From a virus (lineage: Duplodnaviria > Heunggongvirae > Uroviricota > Caudoviricetes): 9,710 nucleotides of DNA. The position numbers and the translations under genes are program-made. The DNA lies in IMG/VR virus record IMGVR_UViG_2531839663_000002; one strand, given 5' to 3'. Shown here piece after piece: positions 1 through 9,710 of this stretch. Position 1 is the stretch's first letter, and each line of letters starts with the position of its first letter. The notes below the pieces were generated by a model, which saw nothing but the letters and a program-made list of their open reading frames with translations, ran no database searches and was not told the origin of the DNA.

Positions 1-156
1 TTGCATCAAGAACAGCAGTGTCAGCCCTAGGCTCTCGGACTTTGTACCGCTTATCTTGTCTTCAAAAATCAGCTCGCCTCCTGCACAGTTCAACGCATTA
101 CGTTGTAGATCGATTTTCTGGTCATTTGTTGATACGAAAACATAGCCAATAAGCAT
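1..156 (-). CDS. Serine DNA invertase (Pin/Gin/Hin family), 5' portion only; gene runs off the left window edge; carries the same Arg-to-Phe change as the right copy
   Basis: Minus strand of 1..156 is identical to 2203..2358, so it encodes MLIGYVFVSTNDQKIDLQRNALNCAGGELIFEDKISGTKSE...; start codon at 156..154 preceded by a GAGGGAG Shine-Dalgarno. Not in the ORF track because it is open at the edge. Confidence 0.7.
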   Translation of the reverse strand, partial: MLIGYVFVSTNDQKIDLQRNALNCAGGELIFEDKISGTKSESLGLTLLFLMQ

Positions 157-182
157 GGTAGCTCCCTCTGACAAAAGCAGGA

Positions 183-725
183 ATGATGCCATTTTCTCGT
201 TATTTCTGCATTTTCATAAACGTTGGTTTGGGAGAAGGCTCTGCATTACCGGTTGGGGTGCCTGTTCCGTGGCCTTCAGCCACTCCGCCAACAGGCTGGC
301 TGAAATGCAACGGTGCCGCTTTTTCTGCTGAAGAATACCCGGAACTGGCAAAGGCTTATCCGACAAATAAATTGCCTGATTTACGTGGTGAGTTTATTCG
401 TGGCTGGGATGACGGGCGTGGTATTGATGCTGTACGTGCCTTGCTAAGTCTTCAGAATGGAGGAGTGGAATCACACACCCACCAAGGGCAGCTCTTCAGA
501 GTTAGTGATTATCGTACAAAAGAAATACCAGCATCAGAAGTTATGGGAAGAGGATATATTGCAAGCCTGACGCCGGGTGCTGATAGCCCACTTGATTTTG
601 ATGATTATTCTGTATCTTCTAATCCAAATGGATATTTTGTCGGGAATCAGAGAACAACAGCATATGGGATAAATGAAACCCGTCCACGGAATATTGCATT
701 TAACTATATCGTGAGGGCTGCCTGA
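183..725 (+). CDS. Phage tail-fibre C-terminal (variable, receptor-binding) module; orphan segment with no constant N-terminal part upstream
   Basis: 180-aa ORF with tail-collar-like PVPWPSATPPTGWLKCNGAAFSAEEYPELAKAYP...DLRGEFIRGWDDGRG and terminal NIAFNYIVRAA typical of tail-fibre C-termini. First 18 codons lie in the repeat; in-frame stop at 159..161, so no upstream fusion is possible. Stop overlaps next start (TGATG at 723..727). Confidence 0.7.
   Translation: MMPFSRYFCIFINVGLGEGSALPVGVPVPWPSATPPTGWLKCNGAAFSAEEYPELAKAYPTNKLPDLRGEFIRGWDDGRGIDAVRALLSLQNGGVESHTHQGQLFRVSDYRTKEIPASEVMGRGYIASLTPGADSPLDFDDYSVSSNPNGYFVGNQRTTAYGINETRPRNIAFNYIVRAA
211..236. other. Putative invertase crossover site (hix/gix/pix-like), left copy
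   Basis: Reverse complement reads TTCTCCCAAACCAACGTTTATGAAAA, resembling remembered 26-bp sites hixL TTCTTGAAAACCAAGGTTTTTGATAA and gix TTCCTGTAAACCGAGGTTTTGGATAA (shared TTC..AAACC.A.GTTT..GA.AA). Sits at the inner end of the long repeat. Confidence 0.6.
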
Positions 726-1327
726 TGAATAAAGCCGTATTAAATAACGAACTCATTGCCATAAAAGCGGGAGACATTACCATTTATAATTATGATGGTG
801 AAACGCGGGAATATATTTCCACATCAACTGAATATCTTGCGGTTGGCGTCGGTATCCCGGCATGTTCTTGTTTAGATGCACCAGTTACACATAAAGCTGG
901 TTATGCAATCTGCCGTTCTGCAGATTTTAACTCATGGGAATATGTGCCAGACCATCGCGGTGAAATCATCTATAGCACCGAAACAGGAGAATCGAAAGAA
1001 ATCACAGCTCCGGGTGATTACCCTGAAAATACAACCACTATCGCCCCGTTAACGCCATATGATAAATGGGATGGTGAGAAATGGGTGACGGATACTGAGG
1101 CACAGCATAGTGCCGCAGTAGACGCGGCAGAAGCACAGCGCCAGTCACTGATTGATGCAGCAATGGCTTCCATTAGTCTGATTCAGCTGAAATTACAGGC
1201 CGGACGGAAGTTGACGCAGGCAGAAACAACCCGACTTAACGCCGTGCTGGATTACATTGACGCGGTGGCGGCAACAGATACCAGCACCGCGCCGGATGTC
1301 ATCTGGCCTGAACTGCCGGAGGCGTAG
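725..1327 (+). CDS. Tail fibre assembly protein (Tfa/U-like chaperone)
   Basis: 200-aa ORF translationally coupled to the upstream fibre module; C-terminal LDYIDAVAATDTSTAPDVIWPELP matches the conserved Tfa C-terminal motif and is shared with the convergent paralog. Confidence 0.8.
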   Translation: MNKAVLNNELIAIKAGDITIYNYDGETREYISTSTEYLAVGVGIPACSCLDAPVTHKAGYAICRSADFNSWEYVPDHRGEIIYSTETGESKEITAPGDYPENTTTIAPLTPYDKWDGEKWVTDTEAQHSAAVDAAEAQRQSLIDAAMASISLIQLKLQAGRKLTQAETTRLNAVLDYIDAVAATDTSTAPDVIWPELPEA

Positions 1328-1742
1328 GCCATTCAATATCTGGCGCACTGGAGGAATCAACCAGTTCCAGTGCGTCCAGATAATCCAGCCACAAATTATA
1401 TTGCGCCAGTTCATCATCTTTCAGACGACCAATAGCGGCTTTACCGGGCCATTGCTTACTGTTCATGTATTCGTTGGCCTGGTTAATTAGTAGCTGTCTT
1501 TCTGATTCAGTAATTTCAATAAGTTCTTCATGCGTGGGTGGAGGAATATCTGCCCACGCAGGCAGCCCATCATCTCCGGCAATACGGATTTTTCCTTGTG
1601 GCGGTTCAGCCATAAACTCACTGATAATATTTTGATTTACTTCCTTAGCGTCTGATAAATCCCATCCCTCTGATTTATATTTATCAATCATATCCACAGG
1701 GAAAAAAGCATTATGCCTTGCGCTATAAACATATTCGTTCAT
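1299..1742 (-). CDS. Tail fibre assembly protein (Tfa'/U'-like), second allele
   Basis: Minus-strand ORF; probable start is ATG at 1742..1740 (MNEYVYSARH...) with a GGGTGA Shine-Dalgarno about 7 nt upstream (the ORF track begins at an upstream GTG, 1751). C-terminus LWLDYLDALELVDSSSAPDIEWPTPP parallels the other Tfa. 3' ends overlap the + strand tfa by 29 nt. Confidence 0.8.
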   Translation of the reverse strand: MNEYVYSARHNAFFPVDMIDKYKSEGWDLSDAKEVNQNIISEFMAEPPQGKIRIAGDDGLPAWADIPPPTHEELIEITESERQLLINQANEYMNSKQWPGKAAIGRLKDDELAQYNLWLDYLDALELVDSSSAPDIEWPTPPAVQAR

Positions 1743-1762
1743 ATAAATCACCCTGAATAAAA

Positions 1763-2176
1763 TTACTCACCAACAGCCCACCAACTGTAATTCATCGATA
1801 CCGTGTCGCTGGTTGATGACGTCCTGTAAGCAGAATTAAAGCCGGTTAACGTTGGGCCTTCTGCAGTCATCACGAACCCTCGCCCAGCGCCTAAAGGCGC
1901 ACCGCCATCACCAGAATGAGTAAGCATGGCGCAGTCCGCTTTTTTGGGGAAAGGGATGCTGAATGTAATTCTCATTGTTTGCGTCGATAATGTCGGCGTA
2001 ACCGCACCACTACCATATTGCAGGATTTTCCCGTTGGGTAATTTCATCCATCCATCACCACTGGCAAAAGAGGCCATGTCCGGTATCTGATTTTCCCCTG
2101 TCCCTACATCCCGTTTTGCCGCTTCTCCCAAACCAACGTTTATGAAAATGCAGAAATAACGAGAAAATGGCATCAT
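1763..2176 (-). CDS. Phage tail-fibre C-terminal (variable) module, alternative allele
   Basis: 137-aa ORF starting with the same 18 residues (MMPFSRYFCIFINVGLGE) as 183..725 because both begin in the repeat, then diverging; followed 20 nt downstream by its own tfa gene. Confidence 0.7.
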   Translation of the reverse strand: MMPFSRYFCIFINVGLGEAAKRDVGTGENQIPDMASFASGDGWMKLPNGKILQYGSGAVTPTLSTQTMRITFSIPFPKKADCAMLTHSGDGGAPLGAGRGFVMTAEGPTLTGFNSAYRTSSTSDTVSMNYSWWAVGE

Positions 2177-2358
2177 TCCTGCTTTTGTCAGAGGGAGCTA
2201 CCATGCTTATTGGCTATGTTTTCGTATCAACAAATGACCAGAAAATCGATCTACAACGTAATGCGTTGAACTGTGCAGGAGGCGAGCTGATTTTTGAAGA
2301 CAAGATAAGCGGTACAAAGTCCGAGAGCCTAGGGCTGACACTGCTGTTCTTGATGCAA
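2122..2358. repeat. Right copy of the inverted repeat (IR-R)
   Basis: Exact reverse complement of 1..237. Confidence 0.9.
2123..2148. other. Putative invertase crossover site (hix/gix/pix-like), right copy
   Basis: TTCTCCCAAACCAACGTTTATGAAAA on the + strand; exact inverted partner of 211..236. Confidence 0.6.
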
Positions 2359-2394
2359 ATTAAAGGATTTAATAGTGAGTTGTGGCCTTACTAA
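2203..2394 (+). pseudogene. Serine DNA invertase (Pin/Gin/Hin family) remnant: N-terminal ~40 codons recognisable, then divergent and terminated
   Basis: MLIGYVFVSTNDQKIDLQRNALNCAGGELIFEDKISGTKSE closely matches remembered Gin/Pin N-termini (MLIGYVRVSTNDQ..DLQRNAL..IFEDK.SG). The conserved Arg before the catalytic Ser is Phe (TTC). Frame stops at 2392..2394 after about 64 codons, against roughly 190 aa for an intact invertase. GAGGGAG Shine-Dalgarno precedes ATG 2203. Confidence 0.8.
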
Positions 2395-2403
2395 TGTAAG
2401 GCC
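2384..2403. terminator. Hairpin between the convergent invertase remnant and the GmrSD-like gene; possible terminator
   Basis: 8-bp stem GGCCTTAC / GTAAGGCC with 4-nt loop TAAT, then a moderately T-rich stretch on the + strand (gctataatcattttatt). Lies between the stop at 2392..2394 and the minus-strand stop at 2428..2430. Confidence 0.35.
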
Positions 2404-2427
2404 GCTATAATCATTTTATTAATTGCA

Positions 2428-4317
2428 TTAATCGTGTTTTGGCCATACTTTCAATGCAATTTCCCCCAACTTTTTACCCCGCTCCAGGATTTCACCCTCA
2501 TCCCATTTATCCTTAAGTATAAGTGGTATGTTCAGTCGTAGATTGGTGTGGACGATGAGAGCATCACGTTTTTTCAGAAATACAGCATTCTGAACAGAAC
2601 GGTTTACGCTAAGGTTAAGCAAAGTTAGATTTCCCAACGTAGCTATCGCTTGTTGCCGTTTCCTTACCAGTAGCTGCTCAGGGGTAAGATCTGTTCCAGA
2701 CAGAACAATTTGGTTCAATACCGTTGCATCTGAATTTGTCACCATATGACCATTTTCGAGAGGCCAACAGGAATACCAACTTTGAGGCATAAGATGATCG
2801 ATATCGAGATTGGAAAGATTTGGAACATCAGGCTTCTCTGTCTTCACTTGGCGACAAAGTTCTCTTTCAAGTTCCGTTAACATTGAGCGCATTTTCGGTG
2901 CGTCGAGCCTGCCAGGATAAAGTGGAGCATTGATGCAAGCATTGAGAAATTCTGAGTCACCAGGCCAACGTGAGGCTTCGCCATTTAAGCTATTGAGGAT
3001 ATTACGTAACTCAACACTGGAAATTTCCGTTTTAGACAAGTGCCGCAATACATTCATAAATACATTGTTGTAATTCTTTGGCGTCAGGCCACATACGGCT
3101 CTTCGTACTACGTAGGAGACAAGATCATTATACATGGCTGCTTTCTCATCATCGGCGATATTAGCTATCGAAATGAACAAAGCAAGCGGATAAAGTGTCG
3201 TCACATCATAGGCTGCGATGCGATGTCCAAAGTGTGAGATGGGGGTTGTGCCAAAACCACCAACTAATTCTTTATATTGTGATGCATATTGTTTGAGGCG
3301 CTTTACTTGCAGATCAGCTCGTTGTGAAGGCAAGTCCTTACTTACATAATCACGATACTCATTGTAAAGACGAGACAGATCAATTTCACGTTGCCTTTCT
3401 GATTGCAATGTCGCATGCACTAGCCACTCCATGCGTGGTTTATTAATACGTCCACGGCGTTGCCTTTCCGACCAGTATGTATCTTCAAAGCTCTTCCACT
3501 CATTTTCATATAATTCAATAGCATTAATATTTTCATGCTCAGCGCACATAAAGATGTAGTTGCGAATAAGATCCGTGGCATGAAGTTCCGCCCCTCGGCC
3601 ATTTAATGTTTCAAAAATTATTTGGGCATCATCTTCAGCTTCGAGAAATATGCTTACCAGTTTCAGATCCGTCAAGACAGCCTCAATTAGTGCTACAGCA
3701 TTTTCATGTGGTGAGTACTGTTCTATTTTAATCCATTTTATAAAGGCTTCAGTAAAAAACCATAATGCCTCTAGTGACGGCGGGTGGTTGAAATGTTTAC
3801 GTAACGTACCATGTTGCGTGAAGCTATCAGAAAATACATCACGGAGATCGTCAATGTTTTCAACATTAAAACTTTGAATAAAATGAGTTTGGTCTCGAAA
3901 AGTTGGCCACAGTTTGAAGCATTCTACCTTTTTATTTCGCATAGTTGCTTCGTTTGTATTTTTCAAGCAAGTCAATACTAACCCTTCCAAATCAGAAAGG
4001 CCTGTAGCACGCAATGATAATCGAATGGATGCCAGAATATATTGAAGAGTGGTTAAACGTTGCTGGCCGTCAATAATATGTATGGTATCTACACCTAACA
4101 AGCTGTTTTTGAGTTGAGGTTCCAGCACCACCGCGCCAAGGAAATGGGGAGTTGGTTTTGTTCCCAAAAGTCGGCTATGTGCTTTTTCGAAGATATCCTC
4201 CAGCAAAGCTGACCATTGGTTTTGTTGCGTCCATACGTAGGCACGTTGATAGAATGGAACACGATATTGTCGTTGATTTTGGAAAAGTTGCTGGATGGTT
4301 AGCGTTTCGGATTTCAT
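2428..4317 (-). CDS. GmrSD-family type IV (modification-dependent) restriction endonuclease, DUF262 + DUF1524 architecture
   Basis: 629-aa ORF. N-terminal region has the DUF262 hallmark DGQQR (aa 83-87, ...IHIIDGQQRLTTL) with upstream YRVPFYQRAYVW; C-terminal region has an HNH/His-Me-like DIDHLMPQSW ... NLTLLNLSVNRSVQN pattern typical of DUF1524. Confidence 0.8.
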   Translation of the reverse strand: MKSETLTIQQLFQNQRQYRVPFYQRAYVWTQQNQWSALLEDIFEKAHSRLLGTKPTPHFLGAVVLEPQLKNSLLGVDTIHIIDGQQRLTTLQYILASIRLSLRATGLSDLEGLVLTCLKNTNEATMRNKKVECFKLWPTFRDQTHFIQSFNVENIDDLRDVFSDSFTQHGTLRKHFNHPPSLEALWFFTEAFIKWIKIEQYSPHENAVALIEAVLTDLKLVSIFLEAEDDAQIIFETLNGRGAELHATDLIRNYIFMCAEHENINAIELYENEWKSFEDTYWSERQRRGRINKPRMEWLVHATLQSERQREIDLSRLYNEYRDYVSKDLPSQRADLQVKRLKQYASQYKELVGGFGTTPISHFGHRIAAYDVTTLYPLALFISIANIADDEKAAMYNDLVSYVVRRAVCGLTPKNYNNVFMNVLRHLSKTEISSVELRNILNSLNGEASRWPGDSEFLNACINAPLYPGRLDAPKMRSMLTELERELCRQVKTEKPDVPNLSNLDIDHLMPQSWYSCWPLENGHMVTNSDATVLNQIVLSGTDLTPEQLLVRKRQQAIATLGNLTLLNLSVNRSVQNAVFLKKRDALIVHTNLRLNIPLILKDKWDEGEILERGKKLGEIALKVWPKHD

Positions 4318-4874
4318 TGTTTACCTATAAGTGACATTCCACAAGAGTAAGAAATTCATCTGAGTCAGAATAATCATTTTTATGTAGTCATGATACAGTG
4401 TATTTGTTGCTGGTGAAGTAAAAACGAGAAATCCCGCTTTTGAATGCTGACGTGCTACGGTTTCATTGGATATTCTCTTTTGTCTGTTCTCCATTGCGTC
4501 GGTGTTTTTTCGAGATTGTTAGCACATTGTTGCTGCTGTTTTTTTATCCAAGCGCTGCTAAATCATTGTAGATGGCACTATCGGGTATTGAAGCTGCAGA
4601 CATGTCGTATACAATAGTCAGCTGCGACTGGCTGGTGAACTTCCGATAGTGCGAGTATTGAATGATTTCCAACTGTTATCGATTTTGCGTATTTTTTGCA
4701 TGAGAGGATTTTTACCTCCTCCCACCGATCCTCCATGGCTTTACGCCAGTGTCTCTGGTCTGCTATGTACCAGAAGCGGAAGTTGTGTCTGTTAGTATGA
4801 TATTATAATTACACTCGCTTATAATAAGCCCACAATACAGATATAAAAATATCTCAACGCTTGGGAGTTAACAA

Positions 4875-5336
4875 ATGATTAACTTTACTGAAATTGATAG
4901 TGACGGTGAAGCCTGGGAGTCATTTGCCCGTGATTTTCTTGAAGAACTTGGCTTTTATATTGAATCCGCGCCAGATAGAGGTGCAGATGGAGGTAAAGAT
5001 CTTTTAATCACAGAGCAATTGCAAGGTCAGTTAAATAAATATAAATTTCGTTGGCTTGTTAGCTGTAAACATTATGCAACAAGTAAAAAATCAGTTTCAG
5101 AAAAGGATGAGATTAATATACAAGAACGTATTGATGGATTCAATGCCGACGGATTTATTGGATTTTACTCAACACTGCCAAGTAGTGGTTTAAATTCAAG
5201 AATGACGCAATTAAAAGAGAATGGAAAAATAAAGGACTTTCGATTCTTTGATGGTAAATTAATTGAAAATCACTTAGTCAGAATTGGTTACTCAAAACTA
5301 CTCCTTAGATACTTTCCTGAGAGCTATAAAAAATAA
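4875..5336 (+). CDS. Small stand-alone Mrr-cat-like (PD-(D/E)xK fold) restriction-endonuclease domain protein
   Basis: 153-aa ORF with GGGAG Shine-Dalgarno about 8 nt before the ATG. Motifs GADGGKDLL (4980..5006) and FRWLVSCKHY resemble the Mrr catalytic core (GDGGIDL ... QCKRY). No N-terminal DNA-binding domain. Confidence 0.65.
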   Translation: MINFTEIDSDGEAWESFARDFLEELGFYIESAPDRGADGGKDLLITEQLQGQLNKYKFRWLVSCKHYATSKKSVSEKDEINIQERIDGFNADGFIGFYSTLPSSGLNSRMTQLKENGKIKDFRFFDGKLIENHLVRIGYSKLLLRYFPESYKK

Positions 5337-5347
5337 AACCCAAGCAT

Positions 5348-5785
5348 TTGATTTTTGATAAGTACTTACCTATAAAATGTGATCGTTGTGGAAAGGACTT
5401 AATAGAAAACCATCATGAAGAAAATTATGATGGCATTGTGTGCAATGCAGAGATCATACACGATGACAAACCAAATGAGGTGATAGCGGTTTATTATGCG
5501 TGTAAAGGTGATTGTGATAAGCATTTTGAGGATTATTTTTGGAATGAATATAAAGCGATTACGAGATGGCAGGATATAAGTGATCTAGCCATCCCATTAT
5601 TCTATCTCAAATGGATTATGGGGACATTTAATGAACTTGAGTATGGAAGGAAAACATATACCAAAGAAGCCTTCAATAAAACAAAGGAGATAACATTAGC
5701 GCTATCTCAAATTGTTATGAGAGAAATGACAGAAAAAGAAAGAGAAAGAGTGATGGCTTTGAATTCACTACCTGATTACATATAA
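5348..5785 (+). CDS. Cys-rich hypothetical protein (possible C4 zinc ribbon), likely co-transcribed with the upstream Mrr-cat gene
   Basis: 145-aa ORF starting 12 nt after the upstream stop, same strand. Only a TTG start is in frame and no clear Shine-Dalgarno is seen. CxxC (CDRC) plus CxxxC (CKGDC) could form a zinc ribbon; no recognisable family. Confidence 0.5.
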   Translation: MIFDKYLPIKCDRCGKDLIENHHEENYDGIVCNAEIIHDDKPNEVIAVYYACKGDCDKHFEDYFWNEYKAITRWQDISDLAIPLFYLKWIMGTFNELEYGRKTYTKEAFNKTKEITLALSQIVMREMTEKERERVMALNSLPDYI

Positions 5786-5958
5786 ATTATATTTACTAAC
5801 ATTTGAACTAGCGCATCTTTGGTGCAGAGACACCACCATCTTGGGGACACTGTGAGGCCACTGGCTTCCCAACTTATCGTTATACAGGATAATAAGGTGC
5901 TCCAGGGTAGCTATGAACTTGATGTTACGTCTGCGATTTGCTCATAAGGGACAACCAT

Positions 5959-5991
5959 ACTCAAATCTCCCACATTGCAGGAGATTTGAGT
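5959..5991 (+). promoter_or_regulatory. Hairpin sequestering the Shine-Dalgarno of the tyrosine recombinase gene
   Basis: Perfect 12-bp inverted repeat ACTCAAATCTCC (5959..5970) / GGAGATTTGAGT (5980..5991) with 9-nt loop; the right arm contains GGAG and ends one base before ATG 5992. Confidence 0.5.
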
Positions 5992-6594
5992 ATGAACACG
6001 TCACCGTGGAACAAAGACCGTATCATCGGCCAAAAAAGACCACTTCAGATATCTCATATCTGGGGGATCCGAATCCGGCTTGAACTGGAAGGTAAAACGC
6101 GCGATTTAGCTCAGTTCGATATGGCCCTGGACAGTAAGCTACGAGGCTGTGATCTGGTCAAACTCAAAGTATCTGATGTTGCATATGGTAGCTCTGCTTC
6201 AAGCAGAGCTACGGTGCTGCAACAGAAAACCGGTAGCCCTGTGCAGTTTGAGATAACCAAAGGGACAAGAGAAGCTGTTGCTGCATTGATAATGCTTGGC
6301 AATTTGCATAGTAAAGACTTCTTGTTTCGGTTTCTGGTCGGAACTAATTAGCTCATATCTACCCGGCAATACAACCGAATTTTTCATGGGTGGGTAGAAA
6401 AGCTTGGTCTCGAAGATTCGCTTTACAGCACTCATTCCATGAGAAGAACAAAACCTTACCTGATCTACAAGAAAACCAAGAATCTTCGGGTGATCCAACT
6501 TCTGTTGGGCCATAAGAAACTGGAAAGCACAGTCCGTTATCTGGGTATTGAAGTAGATGATGTGTTAGAGATCTCTGAATCGATTGAAGTCTAA
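5992..6594 (+). pseudogene. Compact (~200 aa) tyrosine recombinase/integrase (catalytic domain only) interrupted by an in-frame TAG at 6349..6351
   Basis: One frame runs 5992..6594 with a single TAG at 6349..6351. Before it: LRGCDLVKLKVSDV...QQKTGSPVQFEITKGTREAV (box I Arg). After it: HSMRRTKPYLIYKKTKNLRVIQLLLGHKKLESTVRYLGIEVDD (H-x-x-R, His, RY Tyr). The downstream part is missing from the ORF track only for lack of a start codon. Confidence 0.8.
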
Positions 6595-6600
6595 GGTTGT

Positions 6601-6622
6601 CAGGGCTGCAACAACAGCCCTG
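6601..6622 (+). other. GC-rich stem-loop just after the recombinase stop codon
   Basis: CAGGGCTG (6601..6608), loop CAACAA, CAGCCCTG (6615..6622); no following T-tract, so not a canonical intrinsic terminator. A TTGACA hexamer follows at 6633..6638. Confidence 0.35.
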
Positions 6623-6717
6623 TGCCAGGAGTTGACACTGTTAGCATCGCGCTATGTTAATTTATGTTGAGCAGTTAAAAATGATAATGTAGTTTATATG
6701 GATAATCAGTTTATAGA

Positions 6718-7599
6718 GTGGGTGAGATGGAACTAGATGAAACACTTGAAGTTATCAAAAATAATTTTAGTAATAATCAGAAGAAACTATTTAAAAGGAT
6801 TGAGCCAGCCACTAACCGTCAAGTAGCTATCGGTCTTATTAGTTTACAAGGAGTGGAAAAAACATCTCAGGCTGAGATAGAGGTAATTGCCGGCCTCATA
6901 TCTCAGTTTAGTCCATTGGAAATCGATAGTTTTCAAAATTCACCACGACGAATAACTCTGAAAGGTCAATTCCCAAACGGACATATTGTTTATATCGAGC
7001 CTCAGTATAAGGTTGGCAATATAAACCCAAAAGCCCAGCCTTGGGCAATAGACCTTGTCCTTAGACTAAATAGATGGATTGGTCAAGATTTGGTTGAGAT
7101 TGCTGCTATTGGCATCGAGTATGATGGCCACATAGCTCATTATGTGGAAAGTAAAATTAAGTCTACTTACAAGCGTGATGCAGTAATAACTAGTAACGAA
7201 GGATTTCAATCGATTAGGATCTCACCAGAACAATGGAAATCGTCTAAAGAGGATCTTAAGAAGGCAATTAAAAAGTATTTTGAACATCACATAAAAAAAA
7301 TTGAAAAAGTTCAACTAAGCACAATAAACGCCCAAAATTTCAACAATTTTATTTATGAAAATGAAAATGAAGTGATATCCACTGTAACTTGCCCTTTATG
7401 TAATGGAAAAGGCAGTTTAGCGGGAGAAGATTGTCCGATCTGTAATGGAATGGGATCCGTAAAAAGATATATTGCTGCAAAGGTGAATCTTTCTAATTAT
7501 GAAAAATTCACTTGTCCTGACTGCAGGAATATAAAATTAGATTGCAGAACCTGCAATGGTGAAGGATCAATTAGCAGAGAAAAAGCATTAGAAATGTAA
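6718..7599 (+). CDS. Fusion protein: DUF559/Vsr-like PD-(D/E)xK nuclease domain plus C-terminal DnaJ-type CxxCxGxG zinc finger
   Basis: 293-aa ORF (GTG 6718 or ATG 6727 start, ambiguous). Central AIDLVL...AIGIEYDGHIAHY...KRDAVITSNEGFQSIRIS matches the DUF559 pattern (IExDGxxH ... RDxx ... GxxxxR). C-terminus has CPLCNGKG, CPICNGMG, CPDCRN, CRTCNGEG (about 7390..7566), as in the DnaJ cysteine-rich domain. Confidence 0.7.
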   Translation: MGEMELDETLEVIKNNFSNNQKKLFKRIEPATNRQVAIGLISLQGVEKTSQAEIEVIAGLISQFSPLEIDSFQNSPRRITLKGQFPNGHIVYIEPQYKVGNINPKAQPWAIDLVLRLNRWIGQDLVEIAAIGIEYDGHIAHYVESKIKSTYKRDAVITSNEGFQSIRISPEQWKSSKEDLKKAIKKYFEHHIKKIEKVQLSTINAQNFNNFIYENENEVISTVTCPLCNGKGSLAGEDCPICNGMGSVKRYIAAKVNLSNYEKFTCPDCRNIKLDCRTCNGEGSISREKALEM

Positions 7600-7904
7600 T
7601 GATAAAAGTAAACCTAAATAATTTAGTGTAATGTCTGCTTTTCGCTCATAACAGACATAAACTTCAGTTATGGCATAAAGGTATGCATGCTGGGTGGGGA
7701 AAGTATGAAGGAAAAGAAGACTGCTGCGCCGTTTGTCGTCACGTTTATCTTCATTGGCTATGTAAGTCGTAATACAAGGTGGGACAAAACTGAGACACAT
7801 AAGGCCTCGCAATGGCTTGCAAGGCTTTACATGTTTTGATGTGGTGGGACGTGTGAGCGCAGTGTTGATGGGGTAATGCTTTGAATTAGAAGCGGATTCT
7901 TATA

Positions 7905-7950
7905 ATTCGTAATGCGAAGGTCGTAGGTTCGACTCCTATTATCGGCACCA
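7905..7950 (+). other. 3' fragment (~46 nt) of tRNA-Thr(CGU), thrW-like; attachment-site remnant marking the end of an integrated element
   Basis: ATTCGTAATGCGAAGGTCGTAGGTTCGACTCCTATTATCGGCACCA matches the 3' part of E. coli thrW as remembered (anticodon-loop CGT, T-arm GGTTCGACTCC, acceptor end with CCA). Sequence upstream of 7905 does not match the tRNA 5' half, so this is not an intact gene. Confidence 0.75.
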
Positions 7951-8403
7951 TCTTTTATAATAAAATCATCAAGTTATTATTGCATTGTTTTGCTTTGTTC
8001 AACACTAATGTGCAATTCTGCGCGTTGTAGATGTGGCAAAATTGTGGCAAGTACAGTGAGATTGTTTGTGGCTCAATGCAAGGGTATGCTAACGGCACGT
8101 GTTACCTTGTAGCTCCCGTCGATCTTGTCTTTTGAGCAATATTACTACTTTGATGGTTTCTGGTTACGGATGTTGTCAGTCCAGTTCGCAGCCAGCACGG
8201 TTTGACCTAAAGGATGTTATTACAATAACCTACGCAGGCATTCAAACACGTTTAGTCTGCCATTTAGGTTATTGCATTCACTTGACGACCCATTTGCATT
8301 TCACTTAGTCATATCTAACAAAAAAATGCATCCGATACCCTACTATTGACAGGCAGCTTTGAGCGATCTGCTGACATTACCAGCATAGTGGCGTATTAAT
8401 CAT

Positions 8404-8637
8404 CTAGGAGCAGGTCACAATCTCAGCCATCAAGCTCTGGACTAACCCAACTGCGAAACGCTGCAGACTAACAAGACCATCTTCGTCGTCCTCGCCGTAG
8501 AAACGTGTGAAGGCAACCGATCGCACCTTCTCATAGTCTTCACCATGTTCATCGCCTCCAAAACGCTTGGCGAGCGCCGCCAGCACGTACTTCAAAGACT
8601 CTTGGTCCTCCTCTGAACGAATAGAGCTATGACTTCG
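8404..8637 (-). pseudogene. Orphan 3' gene fragment of unknown function
   Basis: Minus-strand frame open from a stop at 8638..8640 to the stop at 8404, with no ATG or Shine-Dalgarno at its 5' end (the ORF track starts at a TTG). Acidic sequence ...GGDEHGEDYEKVRSVAFTRFYGEDDEDG...; no family recognised. Could be spurious. Confidence 0.25.
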
Positions 8638-8804
8638 CTAGAGACAAAGTCGCTTACTTAGCTTCCCTGTTTCGATGTTGCAACTCACATATTTTTAACT
8701 TTCAGAATGTGTTACCCAATAGTTCGTGCTAATGCTACTATTTGTATTCAATCGGATTAATGATGTTGTTACGCGAGTCCATTGAACTAAACATAAGGGA
8801 GTAT

Positions 8805-9330
8805 ATGGGGTTAGCTGAAACATTAGTTAGTATTCCGCAGTCTGAAAGAGGCGGTGAGATTGCTCAACGTGGGTTTGACTATCAAACTTGCTGGGCTTTA
8901 TCTCAAATGCTGGAATATGAACTAGATGAAAAGAACTATGTGTTTATCTTCGAATATCATGATGATGTTCTTATTCTTGATGACGAAGTTTCTCCAACAC
9001 AACTCACATTTGCTCAAGTAAAAACAAGAGAGAAACACTGGACTGCATCCACTCTTAGTAATAGCACCAAGAAGAACCCAATATCTATCATCGGTAAGTT
9101 ATTTATTCATCAAAAGAATTTCGCCGAATATTCACCCAAGCTCCTTTTTGTTACTAATGCTTCTTTCAATCTATGTGAGGAAAACGGTGGTAAGTCTTGT
9201 TTTGGTGCAAATGAAGTCAAAGTGGAGTATCAGACGAGCTTTAAGAAAGCAATCAAAGATCAAGTAAAGCTTGATGACTCCAGTATCGATCTTTCTGTTA
9301 TGCGTTTCGTTCAATCCTCATTAAGCCTAG
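8805..9330 (+). pseudogene. PD-(D/E)xK-like nuclease-domain gene (resembles DUF4297-type domains of defence proteins), 3'-truncated by IS5
   Basis: ATG at 8805 with AAGGGA Shine-Dalgarno at 8795..8800. Motifs GFDYQTCWAL, EYHDDVLILDD and FAQVKT fit a D...(E/Q)xK core. The frame continues into the IS5 terminus from 9331; the last residues GKVRTSP are IS-encoded, so the native C-terminus is missing. Confidence 0.6.

Positions 9331-9710
<380 letters not shown>

What the first reader, a model, noticed from the sequence alone, without database searches (positions are those of the whole stretch)
8805..9353. Nuclease-like gene to the right of the att remnant destroyed by IS5 insertion at a CTAG target
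The PD-(D/E)xK-like ORF runs straight into the IS5 terminus at 9331, so its last residues are IS-encoded. The native protein was probably longer, perhaps a multidomain defence effector or sensor. It suggests a second, decayed defence locus tandem to the island, or IS-mediated inactivation of a costly defence gene.
Basis: partly seen in the sequence, partly recalled or inferred. Interest (0 to 1): 0.45.

Follow-up and report, generated by a model that had tools for sequence, protein, structure and literature searches.

The report
IS5-truncated Lamassu nuclease gene (lmuA)
The ORF is the front half of a known E. coli anti-phage gene (lmuA, the nuclease of a two-gene Lamassu system), cut off by an IS5 element that in related strains is one arm of a transposon carrying tetrathionate-respiration genes, so it is an ordinary dead defence gene.

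Summary
ORF 8805-9353 (+) encodes 175 native residues plus 7 residues (GKVRTSP) read from an IS5 end. That end starts at 9331, directly after a CTAG at 9327-9330.

The native part is the N-terminal Cap4/DUF4297 nuclease domain of LmuA, the effector of a type I (two-gene) Lamassu defence system. Evidence: Pfam PF14130 E 8e-43; PADLOC LmuA PDLC00243 E 3e-104, covering profile positions 1-175 of 361.

Intact alleles in other E. coli are 361 aa and overlap by one base the start of a 550-aa SMC-like lmuB. They read ...AAGCCTAG|ATGACC... at the insertion point.

The truncation removes the C-terminal domain. In solved Lamassu complexes this domain docks LmuA on LmuB and tetramerises it for activation, so the remnant should be inert.

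The window stops 380 bases into IS5. In the closest relative (99.97% identical) and in all 7 complete genomes sharing the junction, this IS5 is followed by CTAA-fumD-ttrRSBCA. In two genomes a second IS5 follows, then CTAG and the in-frame rest of lmuA plus lmuB. That makes an IS5-bounded composite element of 14.6-17.7 kb with a CTAG duplication.

Whether the gene was lost because it was costly is not shown. Known kind, low interest.

The parts
7905..7950 (+). attR remnant: the 3' 46 nt of tRNA-Thr (thrW). It marks the right boundary of the prophage that fills window 1-7951.
   Evidence: Window 7905-9710 aligns from position 11306 of L001, inside thrW (11276-11351). The prophage matches end at 7951. 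ARAGORN finds no complete tRNA in the window.
8404..8595 (-). Conserved small ORF (60-63 aa) between thrW and lmuA in every genome that carries this locus. No family match; function unknown.
   Evidence: Annotated as hypothetical WP_000878752.1. No Pfam or PADLOC hit.
8805..9329 (+). lmuA 5' fragment: codons 1-175 of 361. This is the Cap4/DUF4297 nuclease domain of the Lamassu effector. It keeps the conserved EYHDD (residues 50-54) and QVK (71-73) motifs.
   Evidence: Pfam PF14130 E 7.9e-43, residues 15-178 on model positions 1-162 of 200. PADLOC LmuA PDLC00243 E 2.9e-104, 1-176 on 1-175 of 361. Conserved columns in the 21-sequence alignment. 100% DNA identity to 8 complete E. coli genomes.
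9327..9330 (+). CTAG: the IS5 target tetranucleotide (YTAR class), present once in the uninterrupted gene at lmuA nt 523-526.
   Evidence: The YTAR target-site duplication of IS5 is documented in PMC5009759.
9330..9353 (+). Chimeric tail of the ORF: codon 176 (G from CTAG + GG from IS5), six IS5-encoded codons and a TGA stop (GKVRTSP*).
   Evidence: Translation; junction alignment.
9331..9710 (+). IS5, transposase-proximal end (first 380 of about 1195 bp), running off the window. The transposase ORF starts at 9399 and is frameshifted by a 1-bp deletion after 9470.
   Evidence: The same lmuA::IS5 junction occurs in 7 of 5426 complete E. coli genomes. The exact 182-aa product is listed in 83 blocks of the assembly collection.

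Best explanation
The ORF is a dead remnant of lmuA, the Cap4-type nuclease effector of a type I (LmuA+LmuB, no LmuC) Lamassu anti-phage system that sits just downstream of tRNA-Thr thrW in a minority of E. coli.

Shown here: an IS5 end is joined to lmuA after the CTAG at nt 523-526. This leaves codons 1-175 plus 7 IS-encoded codons. It removes the last helices of the nuclease domain and the whole helical C-terminal domain.

Shown in relatives, inferred for this genome: the IS5 is the left arm of an IS5-bounded composite element of 14.6-17.7 kb. The element carries fumD, ttrRS-ttrBCA (tetrathionate respiration) and other cargo, and was probably derived from a plasmid. It inserted with a CTAG duplication. 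The downstream half of lmuA and lmuB were afterwards eroded to different extents in different lineages.

Inferred from published Lamassu structures: LmuA is held as an inactive monomer on the LmuB coiled coils through its C-terminal domain. After LmuB senses DNA ends, LmuA is released and tetramerises through that same domain, and only then do two nuclease domains form a cleavage site. A fragment without the C-terminal domain can neither dock on LmuB nor oligomerise, so the system is off and the remnant is expected to be harmless.
For: Identity of the fragment:
- Pfam Cap4_nuclease E 7.9e-43.
- PADLOC LmuA PDLC00243 E 2.9e-104, covering only profile positions 1-175 of 361.

Full-length alleles:
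- 361 aa in strains 600029, MS 115-1 and NCTC9064, matching PDLC00243 end to end (656 bits).
- 87 homologues, mostly 355-364 aa.

Partner gene:
- 550 aa, PADLOC LmuB PDLC00255 1010 bits end to end.
- Walker A motif GENDTGKS and a long central region rich in charged residues, which I read as coiled coil. RefSeq calls this protein 'coiled-coil domain-containing protein' in several genomes.
- Its start overlaps the lmuA stop (TAATG), which leaves no room for lmuC.

Fold:
- The AF2 model of the full-length protein has pLDDT 86.7.
- Its best PDB fold match is 9ux7_C, 'LmuAB-DNA complex', E 5.4e-9 over 359 columns. Hachiman HamA, CBASS Cap4, HerA-DUF4297 and Salmonella LmuA follow.

Junction:
-.

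Composite element:
- E3 and C10 read lmuA5'-CTAG|IS5|CTAA-fumD-ttr...CTAT|IS5|CTAG-ATGACCACATT (lmuA 3').
- All 7 complete genomes with the junction have IS5-fumD-ttrR adjacent to it.
- The window's nearest relative, L014, is 99.97% identical over 2122-9710 and continues IS5-fumD-ttr.

Mechanistic roles of the C-terminal domain:
- PMC12663957, bioRxiv 10.1101/2025.06.23.660979 and 10.1101/2025.03.14.643221.
Against: The window ends 380 bases into IS5, so nothing beyond it is observed for this genome. One assembly (L015) has a single IS5 between lmuA' and an lmuB stump, with no ttr cargo.

No sequence-level match to any solved Lamassu protein was found. The link to characterised systems therefore rests on PADLOC profiles and on one fold match with a modest TM-score (0.46-0.55).

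This particular E. coli lmuAB has not, to my knowledge, been tested for defence.

Inertness of the fragment is inferred. The catalytic motifs and every predicted beta-strand of the nuclease core are still present.
Confidence: 0.92

Rival explanations
1. In this particular genome the event is a lone IS5 insertion, or a composite collapsed to one IS5, with no tetrathionate cargo behind it.
For: The window shows only one IS5 end. Assembly L015 carries lmuA'-IS5-lmuB stump without ttr, so that state exists.
Against: L014, 99.97% identical to the window and sharing its prophage, continues IS5-CTAA-fumD-ttr. So do all 7 complete genomes with the junction.
Confidence: 0.1
2. The insertion was selected rather than accidental. 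Either Lamassu is costly or autotoxic, or it acts against plasmids, so that a plasmid-derived ttr transposon landing in lmuA both disarmed it and fixed the metabolic genes.
For: Lamassu systems are toxic at high expression or together with plasmids. The IS5|CTAA-fumD-ttr junction is on plasmids in 25 of 33 genomes. The locus was hit independently elsewhere: IS3 in lmuB of MS 115-1 and a shortened lmuB in FAM21845.
Against: lmuA and lmuB are AT-rich, with 21-24 YTAR sites per kb against 8.8 in the neighbouring core genes, so they are a large neutral target. All lmuA::IS5 copies share one identical junction, consistent with a single event that was then inherited. No fitness or plasmid-stability data exist for this system.
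Confidence: 0.15
3. The 182-aa product is a functional stand-alone nuclease or a regulator or decoy, not a pseudogene.
For: It has an intact start, a plausible AGGGAG ribosome-binding site upstream, and the conserved EYHDD and QVK motifs. RefSeq annotates it as a normal CDS. The exact protein recurs in at least 83 blocks of the collection.
Against: It ends inside the Pfam domain, at model position 162 of 200, and lacks the oligomerisation domain. Engineered N-terminal LmuA fragments were toxic only when artificially dimerised. Its recurrence goes with one shared junction, so it reflects inheritance and not independent selection. Family members of 215-242 aa do occur among the homologues, but they are either labelled partial or come mostly from short contigs and are probably fragments. 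No promoter-like site was found on the + strand upstream.
Confidence: 0.03
4. It is a remnant of another DUF4297-containing system: a CBASS Cap4 effector, DUF4297-HerA, or Hachiman HamA.
For: The Cap4 nuclease domain is shared. There are weak PADLOC HamA hits (E about 1e-7), and the fold search finds HamA, Cap4 and HerA-DUF4297 structures.
Against: The 13 best PADLOC hits are Lamassu profiles (12 LmuA, 1 LmuB) and the top one covers the full length. The intact protein has no SAVED domain. The partner is an SMC-like LmuB, not HerA or a HamB helicase. The best fold match is LmuA in an LmuAB complex.
Confidence: 0.02

Closest known systems
Type I Lamassu (LmuA-LmuB, 'clade S' short Lamassu; e.g. 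Bacillus cellulasensis NIO-1130 BcLmuAB, PDB 9ux7)
   Same: The intact allele has the same two-gene layout and no LmuC. LmuA consists of an N-terminal Cap4 nuclease domain plus a helical C-terminal domain. LmuB is a 550-aa SMC/Rad50-like ATPase. The best structural match of the modelled LmuA is 9ux7_C.
   Different: About 15% identity in the structural alignment, and no detectable sequence match to any PDB chain. The gammaproteobacterial subfamily is untested experimentally as far as I know. The window copy is only the first 175 codons.
Type II Lamassu LmuACB / DdmABC of Vibrio cholerae and Salmonella (PDB 9hr5)
   Same: Cap4-type LmuA and SMC-like LmuB. The presumed logic is the same: the monomeric effector is sequestered through its C-terminal domain, then released and tetramerised after DNA ends are sensed.
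   Different: No lmuC gene. The C-terminal domain is of a different class. The fold match is weaker (E 8e-4).
IS-mediated inactivation of defence genes (e.g. IS insertions in cas genes, PMC10359306)
   Same: An IS with a YTAR target duplication interrupts an immune effector gene.
   Different: In relatives the IS is one arm of a cargo-carrying composite element, and no selective trade-off has been demonstrated.
Horizontally acquired ttr operon in E. coli/Shigella (PMC9638481)
   Same: The same fumD-ttrRS-ttrBCA-metQ' module flanked by mobile elements, seen directly behind the IS5 in relatives.
   Different: In the passages I searched, that paper reports variable flanks and nearby mobile elements, and the terms thrW, DUF4297 and IS1 did not occur. 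The IS5-bounded unit, its CTAG duplication and the lmuA target are read here from relatives and lie outside the window.

Membership tests
Lamassu LmuA (Cap4-nuclease effector) | N-terminal Cap4/DUF4297 PD-(D/E)xK-type nuclease domain with a catalytic (D/E/Q)xK lysine | tested here: met
   Pfam PF14130 E 7.9e-43. H52, D53, D54, Q71 and K73 are invariant (E50 nearly so) across 21 homologues and present in the window fragment.
Lamassu LmuA (Cap4-nuclease effector) | C-terminal domain that binds LmuB and mediates oligomerisation | tested here: not met
   The window copy stops at residue 175. Intact alleles have a further 186 residues, modelled as a helical bundle. The window gene is therefore a remnant of a member, not a functional member.
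Lamassu system (type I) | Adjacent SMC/Rad50-like ATPase LmuB in the same operon | tested here: inconclusive
   Not visible in the window, because IS5 runs off its end. It is present and overlaps lmuA by one base in the intact alleles; PADLOC LmuB 1010 bits, Walker A present. In genomes sharing the junction, lmuB is intact (E3), partial, or absent.
Lamassu system (type I) | No LmuC between lmuA and lmuB | tested here: met
   The lmuA stop and lmuB start overlap (TAATG) in strain 600029.
Lamassu system | Protection against phage or plasmids that depends on the nuclease lysine and the LmuB ATPase | not testable with these tools
   Requires experiments. Published only for other Lamassu systems.
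IS5 | Characteristic terminal inverted repeat and DDE transposase | tested here: met
   Bases 9331-9710 begin GGAAGGTGCGAACAAG and are 99.5-99.9% identical to annotated IS5 copies. The transposase start is at 9399. The window copy carries a 1-bp frameshift.
IS5 | 4-bp YTAR target-site duplication | tested here: inconclusive
   CTAG is present at the visible end; the other end lies outside the window. In relatives the matching CTAG sits at the outer end of a second IS5, while the inner flanks are CTAA and CTAT. The YTAR rule is from PMC5009759.
CBASS Cap4 effector | SAVED/CARF sensor domain fused to the nuclease, with a CD-NTase nearby | tested here: not met
   The full-length allele has only the Cap4_nuclease Pfam domain. 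No CD-NTase is annotated in the intact loci.
DUF4297-HerA | HerA-type hexameric ATPase partner | tested here: not met
   The partner matches LmuB profiles end to end, with weak AAA_15 and SMC_N hits and no HerA hit.

The most novel reading that the evidence does not exclude
A plasmid-derived, IS5-bounded tetrathionate-respiration transposon did not land in lmuA by chance. Lamassu systems can act against plasmids, so cells that received a ttr plasmid would have been selected for insertions that both knock out lmuAB and move the ttr cargo to the chromosome. That would be a direct trade of immunity for a gut-inflammation metabolic trait.
Probability: 0.08. Interest if true: 0.5.

Novelty: already known. 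Interest (0 to 1): 0.15.

Why it matters
There are three practical points.

First, an ORF that RefSeq annotates as an ordinary 'DUF4297 domain-containing protein' is a pseudogene stump of lmuA. It should not be counted as a defence system or as an orphan nuclease.

Second, it dates the layers of this thrW hotspot. An older Lamassu/Septu island was disrupted by a transposon, and a prophage with its own defence cargo integrated next to it.

Third, it gives a concrete case in relatives of a metabolic (ttr) composite transposon sitting inside an immune gene, with a series of decay states.

None of this changes what is known about Lamassu or IS5.

Tried and rejected
- Sequence searches of full-length LmuA, LmuB and a 21-sequence LmuA profile against PDB chains gave no meaningful hit. 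Only the fold search linked the protein to solved Lamassu structures.
- The promoter/terminator scan of 8350-9400 found no + strand promoter-like site upstream of the ORF and no terminator, which is uninformative.
- The tRNA scan of the window found nothing, as expected for a 46-nt attR remnant.
- A whole-window search found no complete E. coli genome covering at least 80% of it. The source-like contig turned up only through the exact-protein look-up (L014).
- I first read the mismatched IS5 flanks in strain 2017.06.04CC (CTAG on one side, CTAA on the other) as an IS5-mediated deletion. Strains E3 and C10 showed instead a two-IS5 composite with matching outer CTAG repeats.
- CBASS Cap4, DUF4297-HerA and Hachiman were considered and rejected on domain content and partner gene.
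- A first translation with start 8806 was out of frame; the ATG is at 8805.

Full report
**1. What is in the sequence**

An ORF begins with ATG at 8805, preceded by AGGGAG, and stops at 9351-9353, giving 182 codons. At 9331 the sequence becomes GGAAGGTGCGAACAAGTCCC..., the terminus of IS5. The remaining 380 bases of the window are 99.5-99.9% identical to IS5 copies in other E. coli. The four bases before it, 9327-9330, are CTAG.

Aligned with uninterrupted alleles from strains MS 115-1 and NCTC9064, the window is identical up to ...TTAAGCCTAG. The intact genes continue ATGACCA..., whereas the window continues with IS5. Residues 1-175 are therefore native. Codon 176 is built from the G of CTAG plus GG of IS5. 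The tail GKVRTSP and the stop are IS5 sequence.

**2. What the gene is**

- The fragment matches Pfam Cap4_nuclease (PF14130, formerly DUF4297) at E 7.9e-43. The match ends at model position 162 of 200.
- In PADLOC the best hit is LmuA model PDLC00243 (E 2.9e-104), covering only profile positions 1-175 of 361.
- In E. coli 600029, MS 115-1 and NCTC9064 the same gene is 361 aa and matches that profile end to end.
- A search of 5.8 billion proteins returned 87 homologues. Nearly all are 355-364 aa, from Vibrio, Shewanella, Aeromonas, Photorhabdus, Xenorhabdus and others.
- In their alignment H52, D53, D54, Q71 and K73 (native numbering) are invariant and E50 nearly so. All are present in the window fragment.

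The gene downstream of the intact alleles encodes a 550-aa protein. It matches PADLOC LmuB PDLC00255 over its full length (1010 bits). It has a Walker A motif (GENDTGKS) and a long central region rich in charged residues, which I read as coiled coil; RefSeq names the protein 'coiled-coil domain-containing protein' in several genomes. It gives weak AAA_15 and SMC_N hits. Its ATG overlaps the lmuA stop (TAATG), so there is no room for an lmuC gene.

An AlphaFold2 model of the full-length protein (pLDDT 86.7) finds as best PDB match 9ux7_C, 'LmuAB-DNA complex' (E 5.4e-9, 359 columns). Hachiman HamA, CBASS Cap4, HerA-DUF4297 and the Salmonella LmuA tetramer follow. Plain sequence searches against the PDB found nothing, so this subfamily is remote from the solved proteins.

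Taken together, the intact locus is a type I (two-gene) Lamassu system and the window holds the first 48% of its effector gene.

**3. What lies beyond the IS5**

The window cannot show this, so I used relatives.

- The exact lmuA::IS5 junction is present in 7 of 5426 complete E. coli genomes. The exact 182-aa product is listed in 83 blocks of the public assembly collection.
- The nearest relative of the window, L014 (GCA_029942945.1), is 99.97% identical over 2122-9710 and has the same prophage upstream.
- In L014 and in all seven complete genomes, the far end of this IS5 is followed by CTAA and then fumD, ttrRS and ttrBCA (tetrathionate respiration), a metQ fragment, IS1 copies, a formate dehydrogenase and a Dyp peroxidase, with an encapsulin in some. 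Immediately beyond this IS5 copy, the reading frame does not continue.
- In strains E3 and C10 a second IS5, in the same orientation, lies 14.6 or 17.7 kb further on. Its outer end is followed by CTAG-ATGACCACATTACACATC, which is the in-frame remainder of lmuA, and then lmuB.

The overall structure is lmuA5'-CTAG|IS5|CTAA...cargo...CTAT|IS5|CTAG-lmuA3'. This is an IS5-bounded composite element with a 4-bp CTAG direct repeat at its outer ends. IS5 makes YTAR duplications (PMC5009759).

Other lineages have decayed further:
- Only the last 590 or 255 bp of lmuB survive (2017.06.04CC, APEC_AN-25, USDA-51688).
- Nothing survives (LR-17-1, LR-64-1).
- The composite has collapsed to a single IS5 next to an lmuB stump (L015).
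- Two IS5 copies sit in tandem (L011).

The IS5|CTAA-fumD-ttrR junction occurs in 33 genomes, 25 of them on plasmids. One example is a P1-like plasmid. A plasmid origin of the cargo is therefore likely.

**4. Setting**

Window 7905-7950 is the 3' 46 nt of thrW, the attR of the prophage that fills 1-7951. In genomes without that prophage, the order is proA, thrW, a small conserved ORF, then lmuA.

In the intact locus of strain 600029, lmuAB is followed by a convergent PtuA/HNH (Septu-like) pair. The lmuA stump therefore belongs to an older defence island next to thrW, distinct from the prophage-borne defence genes.

**5. How it works, or no longer works**

- LmuA is held as an inactive monomer through its C-terminal domain on the LmuB coiled coils.
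- LmuB senses DNA ends.
- LmuA is then released and tetramerises through the same C-terminal domain, which brings two Cap4 domains together into a single cleavage site.
- Isolated N-terminal domains were toxic only when artificially dimerised.

In my model the cut falls directly after the last beta-strand of the nuclease core and before the next helix and the whole helical C-terminal domain. I infer that the fragment can neither dock on LmuB nor oligomerise. It is therefore inert, and the system is off whether or not lmuB survives downstream. This step is inference and was not tested.

**6. Was the inactivation selected?**

This is not shown. lmuA and lmuB have GC 0.35-0.38 and 21-24 YTAR sites per kb, against 8.8 in the flanking core genes, so they are a large neutral target. 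All copies share one identical junction, which fits a single event.

In favour of selection:
- Lamassu is toxic at high expression or together with plasmids.
- The locus was hit independently elsewhere: IS3 in lmuB of MS 115-1 and a shortened lmuB in FAM21845.
- The cargo is mostly plasmid-borne.

I rate a selected trade of immunity for ttr at roughly 0.1-0.15.

**7. Verdict**

The feature is real and correctly interpreted, but ordinary. It is an IS5-truncated pseudogene of a catalogued Lamassu effector. The only mildly new item, the ttr composite transposon sitting in lmuA, lies outside the window and is read from relatives.

Noticed in passing
window 1-2141 (with the stump ORF at 2167-2394): The tail-fibre and tail-fibre-assembly segment is inverted relative to L014, which is otherwise 99.97% identical. 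The two alignments overlap at 2122-2141, the likely crossover site. The adjacent Pin-type invertase gene is only a stump of about 50 codons, reading GYVFVS where Pin has GYVRVS (the Pin sequence is recalled from memory). The flip therefore needs an invertase acting in trans, or recombination between the inverted repeats.
   Followed up: partly
window about 5328 (ORFs 4875-5336 and 5348-5785): A 1-bp deletion in an A-run splits an ORF that is a single 303-aa Mrr_cat-type 'restriction endonuclease' in L014 (6070-6981). It is either a real frameshift or a homopolymer sequencing error.
   Followed up: partly
window after 9470 (IS5 transposase ORF from 9399): A 1-bp deletion (TTCTTGTCC to TTCTGTCC) relative to L014 and the other IS5 copies frameshifts the transposase after codon 24. 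It is either a dead IS5 copy or a sequencing error.
   Followed up: partly
window 2428-4317 (-): A 629-aa GmrSD-type type IV restriction enzyme (Pfam GmrSD_N + GmrSD_C; PADLOC mREase_IV 1478 bits) replaces most of the pin gene at the prophage end.
   Followed up: partly
window 6718-7599 (+): A 293-aa protein with a DnaJ-type CXXCXGXG zinc-finger region (below Pfam's cut-off) and a weak PADLOC PDC-M01B match in its C-terminus. RefSeq calls similar genes 'LEM-3-like GIY-YIG domain-containing protein'. Its function is not resolved.
   Followed up: no
window 5938-6351 and 6439-6594 (+): Two short ORFs lie where RefSeq annotates a 'tyrosine-type recombinase/integrase' in related genomes, so this is probably a broken integrase. 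Neither has a Pfam hit above threshold.
   Followed up: no
L005 4130-18757 (minus strand view), L007 20732-38461: An IS5-bounded composite element of 14.6-17.7 kb carries fumD, ttrRS-ttrBCA, metQ', IS1 copies, a formate dehydrogenase and a Dyp peroxidase with encapsulin. It has CTAG direct repeats in lmuA. The same IS5|CTAA-fumD-ttr junction is on plasmids in 25 of 33 genomes, including a P1-like plasmid (L019).
   Followed up: partly
L004 11245-13550 (-): In the intact locus, lmuAB is followed by a convergent Septu-like pair: PtuA AAA ATPase (773 bits) plus an HNH protein (PDC-M01B). The thrW-adjacent island therefore held at least two defence systems.
   Followed up: partly
L003 11264-14177: In E. 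coli MS 115-1, lmuA is intact but lmuB is split by an IS3 element. This is an independent inactivation of the same Lamassu locus.
   Followed up: no
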